Assembly (NCBI GenBank): GCA_010015805.1
Contig: ML978121.1
Coordinates: 806,001 to 870,000, forward strand
Direction of reading: 5' to 3'
DNA: 64,000 nucleotides
Source: Rhizodiscina lignyota
Taxonomy: Eukaryota
Part shown: piece by piece, positions 1 to 46,444 of the stretch
Position numbering within the stretch: the stretch's first letter is position 1
Layout: the number at the start of each line of letters is the position of its first letter
Notes under the pieces: generated by a model
The model's input: only the letters and a program-made list of their open reading frames with translations
What the model was told of the DNA's origin: nothing
The model's database searches: none
Made by a program: the position numbers and the translations under genes

Positions 1-663
1 GACCTTTTGGTGGACGCACGAAGTGGTCGTCAGCTCTCTGAAATAGACCGAACAGTCGCCGGGGAAGAGAGTCTGTATAGAAGCCTCTCGCTACCCAAAA
101 AGCTCGATCGCTCGTTCTCCCCATCAAACGCCCGCTCCATCTGGAATGGACTCAAGGTAACTACCTATCGAGTAAAGCATGGCTGGCGCAAGAATTCTAT
201 CTCAGATTCTAAACTTGGCAACAACCTTTCCGAATGTCATCGTGTCGCGCACGCACTCTGCCTACTGCAGCTGTTATTTTCCTTCACCGGTAACGCTTTC
301 CTTCGCGATATCCCGGAGGCTAAACACTTCGAGCACGCCCAGAGATTGCGCTACCTTGGGCATGCTCTGAAAGCTTTTAAGCCTGGTCACAGCACACAAA
401 ATGATGTCAGCACGGATGAAGAGAAGGAAAAGATACGTCATTTACTAGATTGGCTAGAAATGATGGGGAAGAATTATGCGGATTTTAATCTTGTCTTGCG
501 TCTGGTAGAGCGCGGTGTCAAGAGCAACGTTCCTGATGTGGGCGATTCAATCAACAAAATCACGAAAGACGTCGACGGTTTAATATCAAGGGAAAGCATA
601 TCTAATGAAGTACATCGGAAAGCCAAGCCATCGGGGCGGTGGACTGCCATTGCAAAGCATTAA
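1..663 (+). CDS. 3' part of a hypothetical protein (probably starts before the window)
   Basis: Open frame of 218+ codons from the window edge to TAA at 661-663; no recognisable motif. Confidence 0.45.
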   Translation, partial: DLLVDARSGRQLSEIDRTVAGEESLYRSLSLPKKLDRSFSPSNARSIWNGLKVTTYRVKHGWRKNSISDSKLGNNLSECHRVAHALCLLQLLFSFTGNAFLRDIPEAKHFEHAQRLRYLGHALKAFKPGHSTQNDVSTDEEKEKIRHLLDWLEMMGKNYADFNLVLRLVERGVKSNVPDVGDSINKITKDVDGLISRESISNEVHRKAKPSGRWTAIAKH

Positions 664-1081
664 GCAAGTGTAGCAGACGCTAAACTAGATACCTGGAGTA
701 TCAAATTCATTCCACTGCAGAAGCTGCTTAATAGTGATTAATTCAAAGCAGCTAAGTTCCCTTCAATCCAGACATCGTAATGCCCGAGAGTGGCGATGAT
801 CGACCGACAAGGCTGTGATTTGACTGGTCGTCGCGAGGCTGCAGCACGCGCGTCCTGCAAGGCAGATCCGACATCGTATAAGGCAAAGGAACTACTGAGG
901 CTACTTGTCGAGTAGAAGTCCAGTTAAATTGCCGTAGAATTCCCACTGGACCTAGCAAGTGGCTGAGAAAGAGAACTCCACACGAGGCCGACTCAATCGC
1001 TGTCTCCGGTCGGAACCATGAAATTTTACTGATTCCTTGAGATTGTCCAAGCCGTCGAGAGCCCTCAACCTGTCCATCAAG

Positions 1082-19461: not shown

Positions 19462-21159
19462 TCAATAATCATCAATATCATCAATATCATCTAGCAACCC
19501 CAACTTTTCCATCAGAGACTTGGGCACCTTAATGTCGCCGACCTCAATCTGTTCTTCGGACTCAGTCCCTCCTTCGGTATGCCATTCTGCCGATGTCACA
19601 CCGTTCGTCGAGGCATGCTGAGATCCCTCAGAAGCCGATTGCACGGCTTCAAATTCCGTCTCTGCAGCATTGCCTGAGGCTTGCACTCTCGTTTCTTCTT
19701 CTCCGTTGATCGAAGGCGCCGCAGCTTGTTGCTCGCTTGTAGTAGTGTCCGCAGTGATGCCATTGGGATAGAGGTGATCGAACATTCCAGGGAAGGGCTT
19801 GCTCCTCTGCTCCTCTGAGCCATCGCCTTGGACGTCGGCATGTTCAGCCCCCAGAGTTTCCTCAGCACCATTCTCCTCATCTTCAGTCCCAGCAACCGCA
19901 CCTGTCCAAGTCACCTCGATCTCAGGGTTCTCATAGGAAGTTTGGTCGGCAACTTCATCAAACCAATCTAGCACGTCCTTGTACATAGCCGGGAAGACAG
20001 CCTCGCCCCAAATGACATTGCCAGCAGAGAATACAGGCTGAGTCACGGCACTCATGTCATCTTTGGTTAGCTGTTGCTTCTCGGGAACAGCGATCGGTGT
20101 TCCAGCTGGAGCTTCGGAAGTCATCCACGCACGGCACCGTCGCTCAAGGAAACTGTTGAACTCAGGGTTCTCGAAAGTAGATGCAGAGTGACGTGGTTCC
20201 ATGAGCGCAATCGCCGCAACTCTCGGAGCGTAATCAGCCCAGTTATCGTTCAGGTATTGAAGGAATAGATCTCCACGCGCTTGCATCCCAATGATATAGA
20301 GCTCTGCATCCGGTGCGACCAGGTCAGGATTATCAACGACGTGCTTGAACACAGATACTACATGCTCTTCAGCAGTGGTATGACCGACTATGTAGTTTGA
20401 CTCGGGATCGACCGAGATAGGATAGTGCACGAGTGATGGAACAGGTCGAGCATTCCAACTGTGGCGGCTCATCGCTCGGTTGAGATCATGTGAATAGAGG
20501 AGCTGGCCGGGATTCAGGATGATGACGCCGGGCGTGCTTGATGTGTCCAGTGAATCTGGGGAGAGTTTCTCTGATCCATTGCTTGCATCGTTCAATACCT
20601 CAGCAACACCATTTTGCGATTGACCTGAGGGGTAATCAATGCTCCAGGCGCGACCTGCGAGCTCTTGAACGAAAGAAGTGAGAGAGCCATTGTTGATACC
20701 ACCATCAGAACAGATTGTGCGATATGAGAGAATACCTAGATCCTGCATCTCATCATTGATGATGACCACGATACGCTTTTGCATGCATAGAGTATCTGGC
20801 GGCGTCGTATAGATTGGTACATGAGGTCCGTTTGGTCTCTTCGTTGTCAAGTGCGGTAGATAGAGCGATTGAATGCCGAGCCGTCTCATTCGCTTGCGGA
20901 CTTCTTCGCGAATCCAAGCTGTTGCAGTGAGTCGTCAGCGCTGCACCTTTGGGAACGAGCTGGAAGAAGTCGTACAGTTCATCGCCTCGCAGTAGACTTC
21001 GTTGTAGCGATCATTGTTTGTGATTGCATATCTGAACCTCTGATCCGGCTTCTTGACCTTACAGATCCGATCTTTGTCGTCGACGAAGAACCCAAGTTTC
21101 CCAATGTCTGCTGGGAATTTCGGATCCTCGGGCAGACCGGAAATCAGACGTCGGAACAT
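19462..21159 (-). CDS. Arb2-domain (FAM172-like) protein
   Basis: MFRRLISGLPEDPKFPADIGKLGFF...NDRYNE start, VIINDEMQDLGILSYR and PGVIILNPGQL are typical of fungal Arb2-like proteins; acidic tail; one intron near 20918-20974. Confidence 0.8.
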
Positions 21160-21698
21160 ATCGACAGTCTACGCGTGCTTTGCCCTGATTCTGAGAGAAG
21201 TACCGGGTAGTGTGGTAGGAGTTACGCGTGATGCCGACTGCAAAGATTCGAAGAAAGGTACGAGTTTGAGAAGAAATCCTTGAGCTACCTCAACCTAGTC
21301 AGGGAAGATTTGAGAGTTTAGGTTGTAAGTTAAAGCCTGGACGTTTTTCAGTTTTGTTGTTTGTAAGGTAGAAAATTTAAAAGGGAAATTGCGGCCTGTT
21401 GATGCTGCCAAGAGTTTTCTTCCCGCCGCTACGAAGTGAGGCGATTGAGCAGAGGATCTGTAGAGTGAAGAAGGAGAAAAAGTCAACCAAGGATAGATAG
21501 TTGGGACCTCATTTAACTTGATCTCCATGCGTAGCCGCATCATGTAAGGGGTATCACCCTAATCTTACACGTCACATTTATGTACAATGCCGCGCATCCA
21601 AACGCCACAAAATGCTGTCTTGAGATCTATCTTAGCGCCATCATATGAAAGATCTTGTACCCTGTCTTGGGTGTGGTCGTTGTGCCCCGTACCAATCG

Positions 21699-22209
21699 CT
21701 ACCAGCTCGCCTTTTTCACCCCAGGTATGTTGCCAGCCAAAGCATTCAGTCGAAATTGAAACTGCACAGCATAGGTCAGCACAAAAGTGTCTCTCGCCCA
21801 ATTGTGTAGATAACCATACTCTAGACATTCGGAAGTCGCCTAATATTCCTTTACCTCTACCAGCCATTATACATCTGTTCTTGATCTGTGTCGGGCGCGT
21901 GTAGCAGTGCATTTGAGTGAGTTGGAGTTGCGCCTGGGCGCGCATTCGTTGAGGAAGCGATGTATTGCGAATTATGTATCGGAGCGCTTGTCTGTGGATC
22001 CCATTGTTAGCTCATGTAACGAGGAAAGACACGAAGATGGGATTATGAGCTTGCTGGCACGAATTGAGATCAGCATCGTACCTCTGCGGCTCGACTTTCT
22101 CGAAGACCTTCCGCTTCGTGTGGTCTCGGAGTACCAAAGTGTTGACGAAGCAACCAAGGTCGAGCTTCTTCGACCTGAAAGGTGCGAATTTCGATACTTT
22201 CGGTGCCAT
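21699..22209 (-). CDS. MRP2: Mitochondrial 37S ribosomal protein uS14m (MRP2)
   Basis: FRSKKLDLG..RDHTKRK, TQIKNRCIMAGRGKG..FRMSR/FQFRLNALAGNIPGVKKASW; two introns. Confidence 0.93.
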
Positions 22210-22566
22210 GGCGATCCTCTGCGTATGTAACTGCGTTATGTAGCCGTGCGTCGTCAATGAGGAAAGTTGAAGATTGGACGACGGCTTATATAAGCGAGCT
22301 GATGCATGTGGTGCGCTAATTTCGTATGGAGCAAAAAAGTCCAAACTTCGCAAGCAACTCTCTTCGACTTACCCCATAAATCGAGGACGAAAAATGCTGT
22401 ACTCGACTGTGTTATCGATGTGGGTTCGTGGTGTTCTTCCTCGGAGTTGCAGCTCACGTTTCTATGTTAGATATCTTTGTGGAGCCGGCCTTTTTGAAGC
22501 ATGATTTTTCATTCGAAGCACATCCCAAACATCGTATTCTCCTAGAACGTCAAGTGCTGTTCTACA

Positions 22567-24486
22567 ATGTCGGACGACATATTTTCAATCAGAGATATTA
22601 AAGATATCGTTCTCTCATTCCCAGTGCATTCAAACTGGAACACAGAACCACACGATGCAGACCTTGTTCCTGCGGCTGACGGAGACGGACTGGTCTTGAA
22701 GACTATTGTACTGAACGCACTCGATGACCTCACCCAAACGACAAGCCGACGCATGTCCATGCGAGATTTAAGCGATACTCTCGATGTCGACATCAATATC
22801 CTCGACGAAATCCTTGATTTGTCTGAGAAATCTCCATGTTACTCTATCGACGGGAAGAGCTTGATTTTCATGCCGGAAGTTCACGAGCTTCTCGCGGAGC
22901 TCACTTCGAAAGCCCGAGAAGTGTTTGTGGAGGTCCAGGAATTCTGCAGGATAGCAGATATCTCGCAGCACAATCTTCTCCATCAAATCAGATTGCGAAA
23001 TGTCGAAAGCGAATATCGTCTTGGCACTGTCAAATGGTCAAATGGAGCCGGACCGAAAGCTGACTTATACATTTTCACGGATTCTCTGATGTCTACAGCG
23101 AAAGGACAAATCGCGGCCTCAGTAAAAGAAGCCCTTCAAGAAGCAAAACGTGTCGTATGGTCTAGAAAAATGATGTACGGCCTTGGCGCAACATCGTTCA
23201 CGAATCTGGTCCAAAAAGTTGCACACGATCAGATCGAGAATGGCCGTGACGAAGCATGGGCTATGGCCACAGATGACAATGACAACGTTATCTTCACGCC
23301 AGAAGCCAGCATTGCCAAAGCCAGAGATGACAGGATCGAAGCTGTGCGAACCAAAATCAAAGACTTAGACGAAAACAAGCGGGAGTTCTTCAGCATTGCT
23401 GAACTTGCGGCAGAAGCCCCAGACCTGTTCCAGGATTCCCGTTCAACGATATATGCTATGCAAGATGAGCTTCGTGGCTCGAACTCTGTCATCCTCCTTG
23501 GCGAATTTGCGGTGTCTAAGTCTTTTGTACTGCAGGCTGCATCTGTCCTCTCTTCCAAAATCCAGCAATCAGCCAATGATGCATGGGATGCCTATGCAGC
23601 TTCCCCAACAACAGTGTCGTACCCAACTGCATCTTCGACGATTTCTTTAAGAGAGCAATCAAAACTATCGGACGATAGCAAGGTTCCTGAAGAGCTCGTT
23701 CGTGTCATATTCGATACCGAGGTCGCCAAAACCGCCAAAGCAGCCTACAACGCACGTATTGCACAACTGGACGCCGAAGATGAAAATCTCTTTGCCGAGG
23801 CCTGGAGAGATGAGATTATGCTGCGAGTGCAACTCTACCATCGCGCAGTCCAAAGCCTTGAGGGAGGAAAATTACGATCGGAGCTCACGAGTTTGCTCAA
23901 TATTTATATGACGAAGGATCTCTTGCCCAGTTCGTTTATGGAAGTGGCGCGGAAAAGCGAGCAAGAATCGAGTAACGGATCTCGAAGCTTCGTTCGCATC
24001 GACCCGATGACAGGAAAGCGAGCACCTAAGTTCTATGGCAAGCGTCTAGTTCCGGCGACGGAGAAGCTTAAGACGCAATGCGAAGCTTTCGAAGAATCCG
24101 AAGATGCGGAGGCTGACCTCCAGCGCATTAGGACGGCTATGGAAGCGTTTGCCGCGAAATTCGGGATTGACTCGGTAACGGATGATGATCTCACAGGCAA
24201 GAAGCAAGCATTTCTCCAAGATATGTCAGAGAAACTAGACCCAACAAAAGCTGGAAAAGATAAAGATGGCTCAACTCTATTCCTCGCTGTCGTCTTGATC
24301 CTTATCGCTAGACATAACCAGGGATTGCTGTACGCGACTGGGCGATTTGTTCCAAGATTGCTGAAGCTTCTCAAGCCGTCTATTGGCGAGGCCCAGTACG
24401 AGCGGCTGCAAGTGCTGAAAGAGGAGGTTAAGAAAGGATTCCTAACGCCCGAGCAACGGGAGGAACTCGTCGCGATGGTCGTTTAG
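22567..24486 (+). CDS. Putative UFL1 (E3 UFM1-protein ligase 1)-like protein
   Basis: Intronless 639-aa ORF. The N-terminal winged-helix-like segments and the C-terminal LFLAVVLILIA..LLYATGRFVPRLLKLLKPSIGEAQYERL resemble UFL1 motifs recalled from memory; see findings. Confidence 0.7.
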   Translation: MSDDIFSIRDIKDIVLSFPVHSNWNTEPHDADLVPAADGDGLVLKTIVLNALDDLTQTTSRRMSMRDLSDTLDVDINILDEILDLSEKSPCYSIDGKSLIFMPEVHELLAELTSKAREVFVEVQEFCRIADISQHNLLHQIRLRNVESEYRLGTVKWSNGAGPKADLYIFTDSLMSTAKGQIAASVKEALQEAKRVVWSRKMMYGLGATSFTNLVQKVAHDQIENGRDEAWAMATDDNDNVIFTPEASIAKARDDRIEAVRTKIKDLDENKREFFSIAELAAEAPDLFQDSRSTIYAMQDELRGSNSVILLGEFAVSKSFVLQAASVLSSKIQQSANDAWDAYAASPTTVSYPTASSTISLREQSKLSDDSKVPEELVRVIFDTEVAKTAKAAYNARIAQLDAEDENLFAEAWRDEIMLRVQLYHRAVQSLEGGKLRSELTSLLNIYMTKDLLPSSFMEVARKSEQESSNGSRSFVRIDPMTGKRAPKFYGKRLVPATEKLKTQCEAFEESEDAEADLQRIRTAMEAFAAKFGIDSVTDDDLTGKKQAFLQDMSEKLDPTKAGKDKDGSTLFLAVVLILIARHNQGLLYATGRFVPRLLKLLKPSIGEAQYERLQVLKEEVKKGFLTPEQREELVAMVV

Positions 24487-25428: not shown

Positions 25429-26276
25429 ATGTTGGGAACCTGGGAATACACGCTTGCGCTAACTGCGCTGCTCATGATATTTTGTAAGTGCCACCGAACA
25501 ACAAGAGATGGCTCTTGCTAACTTGCAAATAAGCGCCGGTGCCAATATTCGGCCAGGAGGTTCAAGATTATGAGAAAAGGGATTTCAGCGACTCTTTCAT
25601 CGTCTTCAACCGCTTACGAAATGGACACGCCTGCATCATGAGCATTACCTTCATCGTCCTCTACCCCCTTGGAGCAATCTCCATCCACCTGCCGATCGAG
25701 AGCATGCCTTTCTTAAGAAATACCTACCTGAAACAGAAAGTTCTCGCCATCCACGCACCCATCCAGATAATCGGCTTCCTCATGATGTGCGGAGGTATGG
25801 GCCTCGGAATTCGACTCGCTCACGATTTGGACTTCTTCAACAATCCGGTGCATGCGCACGTCGTCATCGGCCTGCTCGTCTGCTCCGTCATCATCCTGTT
25901 CCAGCCGGCCATGGGTGTCATCCAGCACCTGCATTACAGGAAGACGGGTGGGAAGAGCATTTTTGCCTACCTGCACCGCTGGACGGGACGCTGCGCCATC
26001 ATTCTGGGCATGATCAACAGTGGCCTGGGCTTCCAGCTGGCTAAGGAGAACGTGATCATCCGCTCGCACTCGTACATCAGGAACTACGTTCTCCTCGGTA
26101 TTCTCGTCGCTATCTGGTTCGCGCTCGTTGTATGGGACCAGTTCAAGCCAAAGGCTCCTAGAAACGTTACCGACGGAGGTGAAAAAGGCGTATTTGAGAA
26201 GCCTGCGTCTGATGCGCTTCCAAGCAGTGACCCGGTTCTTGCCAGTGATGGAATGACGGACGAATCGAGAAGATGA
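25429..26276 (+). CDS. Cytochrome b561-like integral membrane protein
   Basis: Signal-like exon 1, intron 25484-25533; haem-ligand His motifs HACIM, HAPIQ, HVVIG and HRWTGR in five TM helices. Confidence 0.82.
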
Positions 26277-26422: not shown

Positions 26423-27563
26423 TTAGTCGTCCGAGACCCGCCAAACCAACCTCTCTCCGCTAGCCTCCTTGTTTCGGAGTGCATCCATCGACGCCTGCGC
26501 TCGTGCTAGGAGCGTCGGACCTTCGATGATTTTCTGTCTGTTCGGCTTCAAAGAGCCCTCAGCAAGAAGAGTCGGAATGACCTCAGGTTGGAGCTTCTCC
26601 TTGTTGCGTTCACTCTACTCAAATGTCAGTTTTGCGCTGTACTCGCATTTCCTCTCTAAGCATGCTTACTTTGAGATAGAAGTGTGTCCGAACGCCTGTC
26701 ACGTCAACGCCCTCAGCCCAATGTACATTCTCCGTCACGTCCATGGCATACACAGGCTCCAACGATGCAGTGGCATCACGCACAACGACGGGAAGCATGA
26801 CAGCGACCTTTGAGCCCTTCGTCGCAATCTTCGAGAGCGGTCTGATGCTTCCGTCGAGCGACCCAATGCTGTCAATAATATAGGGAATTGCTTTGTCGCC
26901 CCGAGCATGGACAATGGTCTCTATAACACCAGGATCATTATAGTCGAAGACTTGGGCTGCACCGAGTTCCTTGAGATAATCGGTATGGCGCTTCGAGGCT
27001 GTCGTCAAGATATTGCGGAAGCCATAGTACTTCAGAAGCTGGATCGAGAATTGGCCAACTGAAGATGAGCCACCCCAGACAAGGAATGGAGACTCTGCTT
27101 CCTTGGGGGAGAAGTTCGCCGGCTTCGGCCACGGGAGGTCAATACCAAGTTCCACATTGATGGTGTGCCATGCCGTTACAGCATTATTCGGAAGGGTCAC
27201 CGCTGCCTGTGGCTCAATTCCGGGCGGTAGTTTACCAAAAAGGAAGGCATCGCTGGTGACATACTTCTGGTGGCCCTTTTCTTTTGCAGTGCGCCATGTG
27301 AAGCCAAAGACCTGGTCACCTACAGTGAGATTATCGACGCCCTCTCCAACCTCAACAACTGGGCCAACAACACCATCACCAAGAAGGTGGGGCCACTCAG
27401 CAATGAGCAGACCTCCATCAGCTTGATGCAAGTCAAGCGGTGTTGAAGCTGTCCATTCGTTCTTGACGCGAATTTCTCCCTTTCCAGGCTTGACTGTGGG
27501 GACGTTTCGGATTTCCAATGGAGCTCTAGGCTTCACGGCCACGACGGCTGGGTGAGTACTCAT
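26423..27563 (-). CDS. MDR-family alcohol dehydrogenase / trans-enoyl reductase-like protein
   Basis: GroES-like N-terminus, AAVTLPNN, LVWGGSSSVGQFSIQ and LGAAQVFDYND; one intron near 26615-26669. Confidence 0.88.
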
Positions 27564-44989: not shown

Positions 44990-46444
44990 ATGGAGGTCCA
45001 GCTCTATGTCTACGACCTCTCTCAAGGCCTCGCTAGAGCCTTCTCGCAACAGTTTCTTGGCACCCAAATCGATGCGGTCTATCATACATCCGTAGTCTTT
45101 GGGGACGCCGAGTACTTCTTCGGCGCGGGCATCCAAACGAGCTATCCAGGGGCAACTCATCATGGCCAACCTATGGAGATCATTCCGCTGGGGAAGACGG
45201 AGATTCCGATGGAGATTGTCCTCGAGTATCTCGAGTCGTTGAAGGCAGTCTACAGCGCGGAGTCATACGACCTGTTCCTACATAACTGCAACAACTTCTC
45301 ACATGACTTCGCAATGTTCTTGGTCGGTCAAGGAATACCAAAGCATATCACGTCGTTACCCGAAAGAGTTCTCAATACACCATTCGGCCAGATGCTACGG
45401 CCTCAACTAGACAGCGCAATGAGAGGAATCACGCAAGCACCGGTTCCTCCTCCACCCTCAAGCGTTCCTCTGCATCAGCCTCAGCAGCGGACAAATGATA
45501 GAGTTAGAGATACGTCGAACCAAGCCAACAGATTCCCAGCGCTTTTCAAATATCAGAGGCCCTTTACGTACCATGCTGCGGCAGACACCCAAGAGCTCAT
45601 CAAAAAACTTGGACCTCAAGCGTCTAGCGCACTTATTCAGTCGATATTGGATTTCACATCTGTCTACAACTCCTCAACTACAGACCCTCGGGACCAACCA
45701 CTCCCGCCACTTCCAGAATTTTCTTCCTGGCTCTCCAGATCAGAAAGCCATTCTGATGCCGATACAGCCTGGGCAACATTCACCCTTCTCCGCCTTTTGT
45801 TTCGAGACAAGCGCATCACGGGCTACTTCGTCGAGCATTCAGATGCCGTTTCAGCCATCCAAAACCTTATGAAGTACGTCAGCGACTTCCCTGGTGGCCC
45901 ACCAGAGAAGCTGCGCTTGGCGGCACTGCAGACGTTATGCAATCTTTTCGACACCGATCTTAGCCATCGTATTCTAAACAGCGACATCATTGACGCTGTC
46001 ATCAAGCTCTGTACCGAAGCACTGTTGCACTCAGCAGAGGGCTTGTCTTCCACAGGAACCTTGGAACTGACAACGGCCATAGCGCTCGCGTCGGCCCGAC
46101 TAGCGTTCAACGTTACTTCGACAAACTCTCAACGCTCCGAACTCAGCCAGACTAATCAGTTTGAGCTTGCTGCCGCGGTCCTGCAGACCCTATCCCGCGA
46201 GGTGGAAGATCTTGATGCGGTTGTTGGTCTAGAGGTGTCGACTCCGCAAAACTACAAAACTCTAGAGACGCTCGTCCGAGCATTGGGTTTTTTGCTATAT
46301 GCTGCACCGAAGGAGAAGGAAATTGGCCAAGAATTACGAGACCTTGGCGAAGCTTATAGTCTTACTGGCTTACTGGATCGTGTTGAAGGTGAAGAGCGCA
46401 TGAAACCTCTAGTGAAGGATGTTAGAAGACAGGTCGGATCATGA
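44990..46444 (+). CDS. PPPDE/DeSI peptidase with C-terminal PUL-like helical domain
   Basis: VQLYVYDLS, YHTSVV (His) and HNCNNF (Cys) catalytic dyad; armadillo-like C-terminal half. Confidence 0.85.
   Translation: MEVQLYVYDLSQGLARAFSQQFLGTQIDAVYHTSVVFGDAEYFFGAGIQTSYPGATHHGQPMEIIPLGKTEIPMEIVLEYLESLKAVYSAESYDLFLHNCNNFSHDFAMFLVGQGIPKHITSLPERVLNTPFGQMLRPQLDSAMRGITQAPVPPPPSSVPLHQPQQRTNDRVRDTSNQANRFPALFKYQRPFTYHAAADTQELIKKLGPQASSALIQSILDFTSVYNSSTTDPRDQPLPPLPEFSSWLSRSESHSDADTAWATFTLLRLLFRDKRITGYFVEHSDAVSAIQNLMKYVSDFPGGPPEKLRLAALQTLCNLFDTDLSHRILNSDIIDAVIKLCTEALLHSAEGLSSTGTLELTTAIALASARLAFNVTSTNSQRSELSQTNQFELAAAVLQTLSREVEDLDAVVGLEVSTPQNYKTLETLVRALGFLLYAAPKEKEIGQELRDLGEAYSLTGLLDRVEGEERMKPLVKDVRRQVGS

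What the first reader, a model, noticed from the sequence alone, without database searches (positions are those of the whole stretch)
22567..24486. Orphan UFL1-like protein lacking the E2-binding helix in a filamentous ascomycete
Seen: an intronless 639-aa ORF. By eye it aligns colinearly with UFL1 segments recalled from memory (not database-verified). DLVPAADGDGLV resembles VHTLDGKEYI. RMSMRDLSDTLDVD resembles RVNIVDLQQVINVD. LIFMPEVHELLAELTSK..VEVQEFCRIADI resembles LIDENYLDRLAEEVNDK..VTISELCKTYDL. VQLYHRAVQSL..LRSELTSLL resembles IRLFEKGMKFF..TQAALTKHL. LLYATGRFVPRLLKLLKPSIGEAQYERL resembles [28 protein letters not shown]. Established: UFM1, UBA5 and UFC1 are generally absent from Dikarya, and the extreme N-terminal helix of UFL1 binds the E2 UFC1. 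Inference: this protein starts after that helix and shows no lysine-rich loop like that of animal UFL1, so it may be a UFM1-independent scaffold repurposed for another role, such as ribosome quality control or genome maintenance.
Basis: partly seen in the sequence, partly recalled or inferred. Interest (0 to 1): 0.85.

Follow-up and report, generated by a model that had tools for sequence, protein, structure and literature searches.

The report
Truncated UFL1 relative in ascomycete fungi
This gene encodes a highly diverged fungal relative of UFL1, the enzyme that attaches the small protein UFM1 to ribosomes, in a group of fungi reported to have lost UFM1, so it may show what UFL1 does on its own.

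Summary
The 639-aa intronless ORF at 22567..24486 (+) is real, and it is a true but very divergent UFL1 homologue. Pfam UFL1_C scores above its curated cutoff. A 62-member family profile hits the human UFL1 N-terminal region in the PDB. A confident AlphaFold model (pLDDT 90.2) has human UFL1 on the 60S ribosome as its four best Foldseek matches (E 1.7e-13 to 1.4e-7).

It is not an orphan sequence. At least 150 50%-identity clusters exist. They come from several Pezizomycotina classes, are almost all labelled 'hypothetical', and share a conserved Arb2 / S14 / UFL1-like gene order.

Compared with human UFL1, the family has room for only one helix before the partial winged helix. It also shows no fifth winged helix and no PTC-loop protrusion. 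It keeps WH1-4 and a strongly conserved C-terminal domain.

The lost helix is most probably the E2-binding helix (about 70%), but one of three profile alignments says otherwise. Absence of UFM1, UBA5 and UFC1 could not be tested, because no genome is held.

The general idea that UFL1 is retained without UFM1 is already in print (PMC10183829). This fungal family appears undescribed.

The parts
22567..24486 (+). Intronless ORF of 639 aa (P0001), a divergent UFL1-family protein
22582..22620 (+). Conserved N-terminal amphipathic helix motif (aa 6-18; family consensus F-x3-D-x3-L-x3-F followed by P-P). Most likely the partial-WH helix, alternatively the alpha1 (E2-binding) helix
   Evidence: Helix 8-17 in the model with pLDDT 66-70. 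F6 86%, D10 84%, F18 71%, P19 78% conserved. Placement discussed
22621..22659 (+). Variable, Pro-rich linker (aa 19-31)
   Evidence: Highest column entropy of the N-terminal part, 3.53 for aa 21-30. Length varies between members
22660..22698 (+). Partial-WH strand/hairpin (aa 32-44), aligned to human UFL1 about 45-57, the UFBP1/DDRGK1 interface region
   Evidence: HMMER alignments. L33 92%, G39 79% conserved. Strands 33-35 and 42-44. Role of human L45 from PMC9627666
22699..23517 (+). Four winged-helix-like units (aa 45-100, 102-171, 172-244, 246-317)
   Evidence: Secondary-structure pattern of the AF2 model. VIA-align matches to WH repeats of UFL1, SelB and Stn1. Colinear with human 44-288 via P0124
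23518..23967 (+). Helical region (aa 318-467) with long helices. No fifth WH and no PTC-loop protrusion recognised
   Evidence: No PF25870 or PF23659 hit in 62 members. About 100 residues fewer than human between WH4 and the CTD (offsets)
23968..24045 (+). Lineage-specific basic insertion (aa 468-493, pI 11.6), predicted beta-hairpin, shared only with P0002
   Evidence: Occupancy 2 of 150 rows, alignment, pI, strands 476-478 and 485-487
24046..24483 (+). C-terminal helical bundle (aa 494-639), the most conserved part. Contains the Pfam UFL1_C match (aa 564-621 = 24256-24429)
21568..22209 (-). Neighbouring ribosomal protein S14-type gene, head-to-head with the UFL1-like gene. The S14 domain lies in 21568-22011. 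The first exon with ATG at 22209, 357 bp from the UFL1-like ATG, is inferred
   Evidence: Pfam Ribosomal_S14 E 4e-11. The same neighbour occurs in 6 of 13 related loci. ATG read; that exon had no Pfam hit
19465..21168 (-). Arb2-domain gene, syntenic neighbour conserved in all related loci that have upstream flank
   Evidence: Pfam Arb2 E 2.2e-41 and first exon E 4e-11. Present in 13 of 13 loci

Best explanation
The gene encodes an orthologue of UFL1 that has been cut down to a non-catalytic scaffold. [quoted passage not shown] It belongs to a conserved, syntenic family spread over several classes of Pezizomycotina. Inferred: it has lost the extreme N-terminal alpha1 helix that recruits the E2 UFC1. 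It has also lost the fifth WH and the 88-residue protrusion that carries the peptidyl-transferase-centre loop. It therefore cannot work as a UFM1 ligase in the human way, which fits fungi reported to lack UFM1. Inferred mechanism: the conserved partial WH still pairs with a UFBP1/DDRGK1-like partner to complete a composite WH. The strongly conserved C-terminal bundle still docks in the tRNA-binding groove on the intersubunit face of free 60S subunits. The protein would thus mark, hold or recycle 60S subunits (anti-association, ribosome quality control) without any UFM1 transfer.
For: UFL1 identity:
- Pfam UFL1_C on the window protein scores 27.1 bits against a cutoff of 24.
- 37 of 62 relatives hit UFL1_C and 19 of 62 hit E3_UFM1_ligase.
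- Family profiles A1 and A2 hit PDB UFL1 chains 8b9x_A and 8c0d_A at E 2e-4 to 2e-3.
- The AF2 model has pLDDT 90.2. Its four best Foldseek hits are human UFL1 on the 60S (E 1.7e-13, 8.3e-13, 1.1e-12, 1.4e-7). VIA-align gives Z 13.0-13.8 over model 5-8..639 against human 27-29..784.
- The ESM Atlas lists UFL1 clusters directly after the protein's own cluster.

A real, conserved gene:
- At least 150 clusters.
- The tree groups members largely by fungal lineage.
- Arb2 is a neighbour in 13 of 13 loci and S14 in 6 of 13, and both are neighbours in the window.

True N-terminus:
- An in-frame stop lies 7 codons upstream in the window.
- In 11 of 12 related loci a stop lies 8-29 codons upstream of the match (one ran off its contig). 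In 11 the match begins at the Met that opens the motif, and in L032 the Met lies 3 codons before it.

Only one helix before the hairpin:
- In the shortest members the motif-to-hairpin distance is 25-29 residues. That equals the distance from about human residue 23-27 to D52 and needs no gap (with numbering read from the chain printed).
- Three ribosome-bound human chains superpose from residue 27-29 onto model residue 5-8.
- Deleting alpha1 abolishes UFC1 binding and ligase activity in human UFL1 (PMC10702826 passages; PMC10937380 passages).

Missing middle:
- No WHD_UFL1_5th or UFL1-middle Pfam hit in 62 members.
- About 100 fewer residues between WH4 and the CTD.
- The human PTC loop lies in an 88-residue protrusion, 388-476 (PMC10937380 section 9).

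CTD:
- It holds the lowest-entropy block of the family, aa 571-600, and is the best-matching part to human.
- In human it occupies the A, P and E tRNA sites and clashes with the 40S (PMC10937380).

Context:
- The UFM1 pathway is reported as lost in fungi.
Against: - The A1 profile aligned the fungal N-terminal helix to human alpha1, not to the partial-WH helix, with posterior marks of 6-8. The family consensus E-D-I-R-E-L-x3-F matches 5 of 10 positions of the human alpha1 stretch printed there, including I8, L11 and F15, and sits at almost the same distance from the initiator Met. A retained alpha1 would imply a retained E2-like partner.
- With crystal chain 8c0d_A, VIA-align did not include the model's N-terminal helix (model 29..146).
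- Absence of UFM1, UFC1, UBA5 and DDRGK1 in this genome was not tested.
- No RNA data support expression (one search listed no RNA run).
- Ribosome binding is inferred only from conservation of the CTD.
- Deleting the C-terminal region did not affect 60S UFMylation in vitro for human UFL1 (PMC9627666 passage), so the CTD is not the only ribosome contact there.
- The human WH4 residues that contact RPL10a (W256, F260, Y266, L275) correspond to E, Q, F, A in P0124, in a weak 2.6-bit alignment.
- The protein and its CTD are acidic overall (pI 5.0 and 5.2).
Confidence: 0.55

Rival explanations
1. It is still a working E3 for UFM1 or a UFM1-like modifier. The conserved N-terminal helix would be alpha1, the lineage would cryptically retain a UFC1-type E2 and its modifier, and the partial-WH helix rather than alpha1 would be what was lost.
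For: - A1 profile alignment of the fungal helix to human alpha1.
- The consensus E-D-I-R-E-L-x3-F against the human stretch containing I8, L11 and F15, which are the residues whose mutation abolishes UFC1 binding.
- Strong conservation of this helix (F6 86%, D10 84%, F18 71%), which implies a binding partner.
Against: - The alpha1 alignment was not reproduced with profile A2. A3 did not reach UFL1 at all.
- The Orbiliomycete members, which are closest to canonical UFL1 by Pfam score, have the helix 4-6 residues from the strand, as the human partial-WH helix does, and have lost the F15-equivalent.
- It requires an internal deletion of about 20 residues in every member, rather than a simple N-terminal truncation.
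- The literature reports the pathway as lost throughout fungi.
Confidence: 0.12
2. It is a UFL1-derived tandem winged-helix scaffold that no longer acts on ribosomes. It would instead bind nucleic acid or organise another complex, for example in genome maintenance or as a PCI-like assembly, as the first reader also suggested.
For: - Generic WH matches to Stn1 (Z 9.5, rmsd 2.1 over 72 residues) and SelB WH2-4 (Z 8.2).
- Human UFL1 WH domains are described as PCI-like (PMC9627666).
- The RPL10a-contact residues are not conserved in the weak P0124 alignment.
- The PTC loop is missing.
Against: - The WH matches are single-domain fold resemblances, far below the full-length UFL1 matches.
- The most conserved part is the CTD, which in human UFL1 sits in the tRNA groove.
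- The WH region is acidic (pI 4.2-5.8), which is unlike a nucleic-acid binder.
Confidence: 0.2
3. It is a decaying relic with no function.
For: Very long branches (median end branch 1.01 changes per column). Only 19-29% identity to most relatives. No RNA run was available.
Against: - Intact 639-aa frame.
- High-confidence fold.
- Family conserved across several classes, with conserved start, motifs and synteny.
Confidence: 0.03

Closest known systems
Human UFL1 (E3 UFM1-protein ligase 1; PDB 8ohd, 8qfc, 9gy4, 8oj8, 8b9x, 8c0d)
   Same: Same order of parts: partial WH strand, tandem WH units, long helices, C-terminal helical bundle. It is the best structural match over nearly the full length. 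The shared C-terminal motif L-x-A-x-G-[KR]-x-x-P-x-[LI]-[LI]-x-x-L is seen in the alignment.
   Different: - 13-15% identity.
- 639 aa against 794 aa.
- One helix instead of two before the hairpin.
- Four WH units recognised instead of five.
- No 88-residue PTC-loop protrusion.
- A private 26-residue basic insertion at aa 468-493.
- The host lineage is reported to lack UFM1.
UFL1/DDRGK1 retained in eukaryotes that lost UFM1 (for example Albugo and Neocallimastigomycetes; PMC10183829, passages read)
   Same: The same situation: a UFL1 homologue kept where UFM1 is reported lost, which the authors take as a hint of a UFM1-independent function.
   Different: The paper's text does not name Pezizomycotina. 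Its species table is in PDF supplements that I could not read, so I cannot tell whether any member of this family was scored there.
Tandem winged-helix proteins SelB (C-terminal WH1-4) and Stn1
   Same: WH-repeat fold (VIA-align Z 8.2 and 9.5; ESM Atlas structure rows).
   Different: Only one to three WH units match. There is no sequence relationship and no counterpart of the UFL1 C-terminal bundle.

Membership tests
UFL1 (E3 UFM1-protein ligase 1) family | Sequence match to the UFL1 C-terminal domain (Pfam PF25041) | tested here: met
   27.1 bits against a curated cutoff of 24, E 3.9e-6, aa 564-621. 37 of 62 relatives also match at E<=0.01.
UFL1 (E3 UFM1-protein ligase 1) family | Sequence match to the N-terminal UFL1 region (Pfam PF09743: partial WH to WH4) | tested here: inconclusive
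   The window protein has no hit at E<=10. 19 of 62 relatives hit at E<=0.01 (best 1.5e-16, P0124). Family profiles A1 and A2, which contain the window protein, hit human UFL1 N-terminal chains at E 2e-4 to 2e-3.
UFL1 (E3 UFM1-protein ligase 1) family | Architecture: partial WH + tandem WH repeats + C-terminal helical region, colinear with UFL1 | tested here: met
   AF2 model pLDDT 90.2. Foldseek top four hits are human UFL1, E 1.7e-13 to 1.4e-7. VIA-align Z 13.0-13.8 across model 5-8..639. Four WH units are recognised, not five.
UFL1 (E3 UFM1-protein ligase 1) family | Extreme N-terminal alpha1 helix that binds UFC1 (human W5, I8, L11, F15) | tested here: inconclusive
   There is room for only one helix before the hairpin. 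Spacing and superposition favour the partial-WH helix. One of three profiles aligned it to alpha1 (not).
UFL1 (E3 UFM1-protein ligase 1) family | Fifth WH domain and PTC-loop protrusion (human 388-476) | tested here: inconclusive
   No PF25870 or PF23659 hit in 62 members at E<=0.01. Only helices follow WH4 in the model. About 100 fewer residues than human between WH4 and the CTD. No residue-level structural alignment was available.
UFL1 (E3 UFM1-protein ligase 1) family | Composite WH with a UFBP1/DDRGK1 partner | not testable with these tools
   No genome is held and no partner sequence was available. The strand at the interface is conserved (L33 92%).
UFL1 (E3 UFM1-protein ligase 1) family | Presence of UFM1, UBA5 and UFC1 in the same genome, and E3 activity | not testable with these tools
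   No genome is held. None of the 21 window ORFs of 200 aa or more is a UFM1-pathway protein, but the window is only 64 kb.
SelB / Stn1-type tandem winged-helix nucleic-acid binders | Homology beyond the generic WH fold | tested here: not met
   Matches cover only 70-120 residues at 4-13% identity. No Pfam SelB or Stn1 family hit on the window protein at E<=10.

The most novel reading that the evidence does not exclude
The Pezizomycotina family is a natural separation-of-function form of UFL1. It would have lost E2 recruitment and the PTC loop but kept, under selection, the ancestral UFM1-independent activity that the proposed Asgard origin of UFL1/DDRGK1 implies. That activity would be binding the intersubunit face of free 60S subunits together with a DDRGK-like partner. 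If so, these fungi would let the non-ligase function of UFL1 be studied in isolation.
Probability: 0.35. Interest if true: 0.75.

Novelty: new variant of a known kind. Interest (0 to 1): 0.5.

Why it matters
UFMylation is usually described as absent from fungi. UFL1's possible ligase-independent roles are discussed (PMC10937380, PMC10183829) but are hard to separate from UFM1 transfer in animals and plants.

A conserved fungal UFL1 that lacks the E2-binding and PTC-loop parts would be a natural experiment on what the scaffold and its ribosome-binding end do alone. It would also correct phylogenetic profiles that score UFL1 as absent from Ascomycota.

Retention of UFL1 without UFM1 is already published as a general pattern. 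UniRef also already labels some members by their UFL1 C-terminal domain.

Tried and rejected
- **Single-sequence AlphaFold**: pLDDT 36.9, unusable.
- **phmmer of the window protein against the PDB**: 0 hits at E<=10.
- **The search for homologous proteins with the protein and with alignment A1**: returned only the query among 7998 scored candidates. It missed P0002 (47% identity), which one search shows is in that collection. These blanks therefore say nothing.
- **Whole-genome access**: none is held, so the UFM1-cascade test could not be run.
- **The look-up of sequencing runs, kind rna**: no RNA holder listed, one DNA holder. Read laying was not used, because contigs of the source cannot show transcripts.
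- **The search of earlier findings** by place, sequence and words: nothing.
- **Supplement of PMC10183829**: only a proteomics spreadsheet was readable. The species presence/absence data are in PDFs that could not be read, so they may already list such fungi.
- **Paper searches.** 'UFL1' + 'Ascomycota' gave 1 paper, where the word is only a clade label. The six-term search with min_terms 2 listed no paper that contained UFL1. A bioRxiv preprint on UFMylation and splicing had no mention of fungi.
- **Profile A3** (12 close relatives) against the PDB: only chance-level hits, no UFL1.
- **Pfam on 7 upstream reading-frame pieces**: no UFL1 hit. This has low power for a short exon.
- **Complex prediction** of two copies of residues 1-175, to ask whether two copies complete each other's partial WH: verdict 'no answer' (score 0.02, mark 0.32). 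It is not evidence either way.
Repeated with the tighter alignment A3.
- **Model coordinates** are not exposed, so the packing of the N-terminal helix could not be inspected.
- **Considered and rejected:** a SelB/Stn1-type identity (fold-only resemblance), and an upstream exon restoring alpha1.
Full report
**Observation.** The window holds an uninterrupted ORF at 22567..24486 on the + strand, 639 aa long. The reading frame opens only 7 codons before the ATG. G+C content is ordinary for the surroundings.

Four are reproduced by HMMER. The hairpin, the R-x-S-x-x-D-L...D-V-D helix and the aa 99-132 segment align to human UFL1 when a 62-sequence family profile is run against PDB sequences (8b9x_A E 3.4e-4, 8c0d_A E 5.4e-4). 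The C-terminal motif lies within a Pfam UFL1_C match on the window protein itself (27.1 bits, cutoff 24). It also aligns to human 667-737 through the relative P0124. The fifth segment (aa 421-444) was never displayed residue by residue, so it stays untested.

On its own the window protein is too diverged for phmmer against the PDB (0 hits) or for Pfam's N-terminal UFL1 model.

**What it is.** The nearest is P0002, at 47% identity over the full length.

I looked up 30 proteins for names, and 22 carried an organism. All are Pezizomycotina.
- By lookup they include Orbiliomycetes, Coniocybomycetes, Candelariomycetes, Sareomycetes and Vezdaeales.
- By my own recollection of their taxonomy, many are Dothideomycete genera.
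- None of the 22 is from Eurotiomycetes, Sordariomycetes or Leotiomycetes. This is not evidence of absence.

All are labelled hypothetical or uncharacterized, except two UniRef names reading 'E3 UFM1-protein ligase-like C-terminal domain-containing protein'.

Of 62 full-length members, 37 match Pfam UFL1_C and 19 match E3_UFM1_ligase at E<=0.01. None matches the UFL1-middle or fifth-WH models.

With the 150-sequence alignment, AlphaFold gave a confident model (pLDDT 90.2, pTM 0.63). Its four best Foldseek matches in the PDB are human UFL1 bound to the 60S subunit (E 1.7e-13, 8.3e-13, 1.1e-12, 1.4e-7; 581-759 alignment columns; 13-14% identity). Global TM-scores are low (0.24-0.31), as expected for a flexible multi-domain clamp. 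VIA-align gives Z 13.0-13.8 for model 5-8..639 against human 27-29..784. The ESM Atlas places UFL1 clusters right after the protein's own unnamed ascomycete cluster. Membership of the UFL1 family is therefore well supported.

**Anatomy.** The model has the following parts:
- a helix at aa 8-17 (pLDDT 66-70);
- a coil;
- a hairpin at aa 33-44;
- four winged-helix-like units (aa 45-100, 102-171, 172-244, 246-317);
- long helices (aa 318-345, 375-429, 435-467);
- a small hairpin at aa 476-487;
- a helical bundle at aa 494-638.

Conservation is highest in the bundle (aa 571-600). Next come aa 431-460, the N-terminal helix and the hairpin.

Through P0124, fungal 23-261 is colinear with human 44-288, and fungal 540-610 with human 667-737. 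So about 100 residues are missing between WH4 and the C-terminal domain. The human PTC loop is part of an 88-residue protrusion, residues 388-476 (PMC10937380 section 9). No fifth WH is recognised in the fungal family. The deficit fits loss of that protrusion and of about one WH unit, but no residue-level structural alignment was available to prove it.

The window protein and P0002 alone carry a basic insertion at aa 468-493, pI 11.6.

**The N-terminus.** Human UFL1 has alpha1 (aa 1-25), which binds UFC1, followed by a partial WH whose interface with UFBP1 centres on L45, and then WH1 from aa 52 (PMC9627666 passages). The contact residues W5, I8, L11 and F15, and the mutants L11R/F15R, I8R, F15R and Q19R, come from PMC10702826 and PMC10937380 (passages).

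The fungal family has a single helix. It lies at the very start of the protein, with consensus F-x3-D-x3-L-x3-F-P-P.

The start is genuine:
- In the window, an in-frame stop lies 7 codons upstream.
- In 11 of 12 environmental loci whose match reaches residue 1, a stop lies 8-29 codons upstream; one ran off its contig. In 11 the match begins at the Met that opens the motif, and in L032 the Met lies 3 codons before it. Several of the 12 are copies of one sequence.
- Seven upstream frame pieces in the window show no UFL1 match.

So one of the two human helices is missing. Which one is not settled.

For loss of alpha1:
- In the shortest members the motif-to-hairpin distance is 25-29 residues. That matches the human distance from about residue 23-27 to D52 without any gap.
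- The Orbiliomycete members are closest to canonical UFL1 by Pfam score. They have the helix 4-6 residues before the strand, as in the human partial WH.
- Three ribosome-bound human chains superpose from residue 27-29 onto model residue 5-8.
- A simple N-terminal truncation is more parsimonious than an internal deletion.

Against loss of alpha1:
- Profile A1 aligned the helix to alpha1 across a 20-residue human insert.
- The consensus shares E, I, R, L and F with the human stretch printed there.
- Profile A2 did not reproduce this alignment, and A3 did not reach UFL1 at all.
- Pfam's local alignments start only at the hairpin.
- VIA-align against crystal chain 8c0d_A omitted the helix.

I put loss of alpha1 at about 70%.

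**Context and descent.** The window carries, head-to-head with this gene, an S14-type ribosomal protein gene. Its domain lies at 21568-22011 on the minus strand (E 4e-11). A putative first exon has its ATG at 22209, 357 bp from the UFL1-like ATG. That exon was read and is inferred. Beyond it lies an Arb2-domain gene.

Of the 34 related metagenome loci, I examined 16. Thirteen of these had at least 2.4 kb of upstream flank.
- All 13 have an Arb2 gene in the same place.
- 6 of the 13 show the S14 domain at E<=1e-6 among ORF pieces of 110 aa or more.

This synteny holds although the proteins share only about 20-25% identity with the window protein. That supports orthology and vertical descent.

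A quick tree was built from 26 rows: the named members, the window protein and three unnamed relatives, out of the 151 proteins held. It groups the Coniocybo-, Candelario-, Sareo- and Vezdaeales members together (SH-aLRT 100) and the Pleosporales-type members together (99). It places the window protein with unnamed relatives next to Aulographum, Microthyrium, Tothia and Venturia (97). Branches are long and several forks are unresolved.

No UFM1-pathway gene is among the 21 window ORFs of 200 aa or more.

**Mechanism.** Shown: a UFL1 fold, a conserved partial WH, and a conserved C-terminal bundle.

From the literature:
- The human bundle sits in the tRNA groove between 28S helices 69 and 38a, occludes the A, P and E sites and clashes with the 40S (PMC10937380).
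- The partial WH must be completed by UFBP1 (PMC9627666).
- Deleting alpha1 abolishes E2 binding.
- The pathway is reported lost in fungi (PMC8057497), while UFL1 and DDRGK1 are often kept where UFM1 is lost (PMC10183829).

Inferred: the fungal protein is a ligase-dead scaffold that pairs with a DDRGK-like partner and binds free 60S subunits.

Weak points:
- No genome was available to test the cascade.
- No expression data were available.
- The RPL10a-contact residues do not appear conserved.
- The human C-terminal region is dispensable for 60S UFMylation in vitro.

**Comparison and novelty.** This is a UFL1-family member with a reduced architecture, in a clade for which I found no description. 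Only one paper in the library holds both 'UFL1' and 'Ascomycota', and there the word is a clade label. The species table of PMC10183829 could not be read and may bear on this.

The general pattern of UFL1 kept without UFM1, and the suggestion of a UFM1-independent role, are already published. Automatic annotation already tags some members.

I rate it a new variant of a known kind, of moderate interest.

Noticed in passing
window 19465-22566 (minus strand); L002, L005, L010, L013, L014, L021, L023, L024, L027, L028, L029, L030, L032 upstream flanks: Conserved microsynteny. An Arb2-domain gene and an S14-type ribosomal protein gene lie upstream of, and divergent from, the UFL1-like gene. This holds in the window and in related loci (Arb2 in 13 of 13, S14 in 6 of 13), even though the UFL1-like proteins share only about 20-25% identity with the window protein. 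In the window the two start codons are about 357 bp apart, which suggests a shared bidirectional promoter.
   Followed up: partly
window 23968-24045 (aa 468-493): A 26-residue strongly basic insertion (pI 11.6), predicted as a beta-hairpin between two C-terminal helices. It is present only in the window protein and its nearest relative P0002, with a conserved core (F-x2-I-D-P-x-T-G-K ... G-K-R-L-V-P-A). Its position in a loop of the C-terminal helices recalls, loosely, the human PTC-loop protrusion. No homology is claimed.
   Followed up: partly
L002, L010-L012, L024, L027, L030 (start of the match): In several relatives the reading frame from the conserved Met closes after 63 or about 185-190 codons while the tblastn match continues. 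Those genes probably have introns. The window gene and L004, L008, L009 and L020 are open over about 632-641 codons.
   Followed up: no
L001, L002, L005, L010, L029 downstream flanks: A PAPS-reductase-domain gene follows the UFL1-like gene in 5 of the 16 loci examined. It does not do so in the window, where the next ORFs are a 212-aa ORF without a Pfam match (25638-26276) and an alcohol-dehydrogenase-like ORF (26622-27563, minus strand).
   Followed up: no
window 44990-46441 (+): An ORF with a PPPDE/Peptidase_C97 domain (E 1.2e-42) followed by a PUL domain (E 6.8e-18). PPPDE is, to my recollection, a ubiquitin-like-protein peptidase family. It is unrelated to the finding, as far as was checked.
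   Followed up: no
family members P0117-P0150 (about 560-610 aa): A subgroup that includes Meristemomyces and Neophaeotheca has the same N-terminal motif (A-P-I-F-A-S-P-D-I-A-A-L-V-A-A-F-P-P), but most of its members give no Pfam UFL1 hit at all at E<=0.1. It sits on a very long branch (1.9).
   Followed up: no
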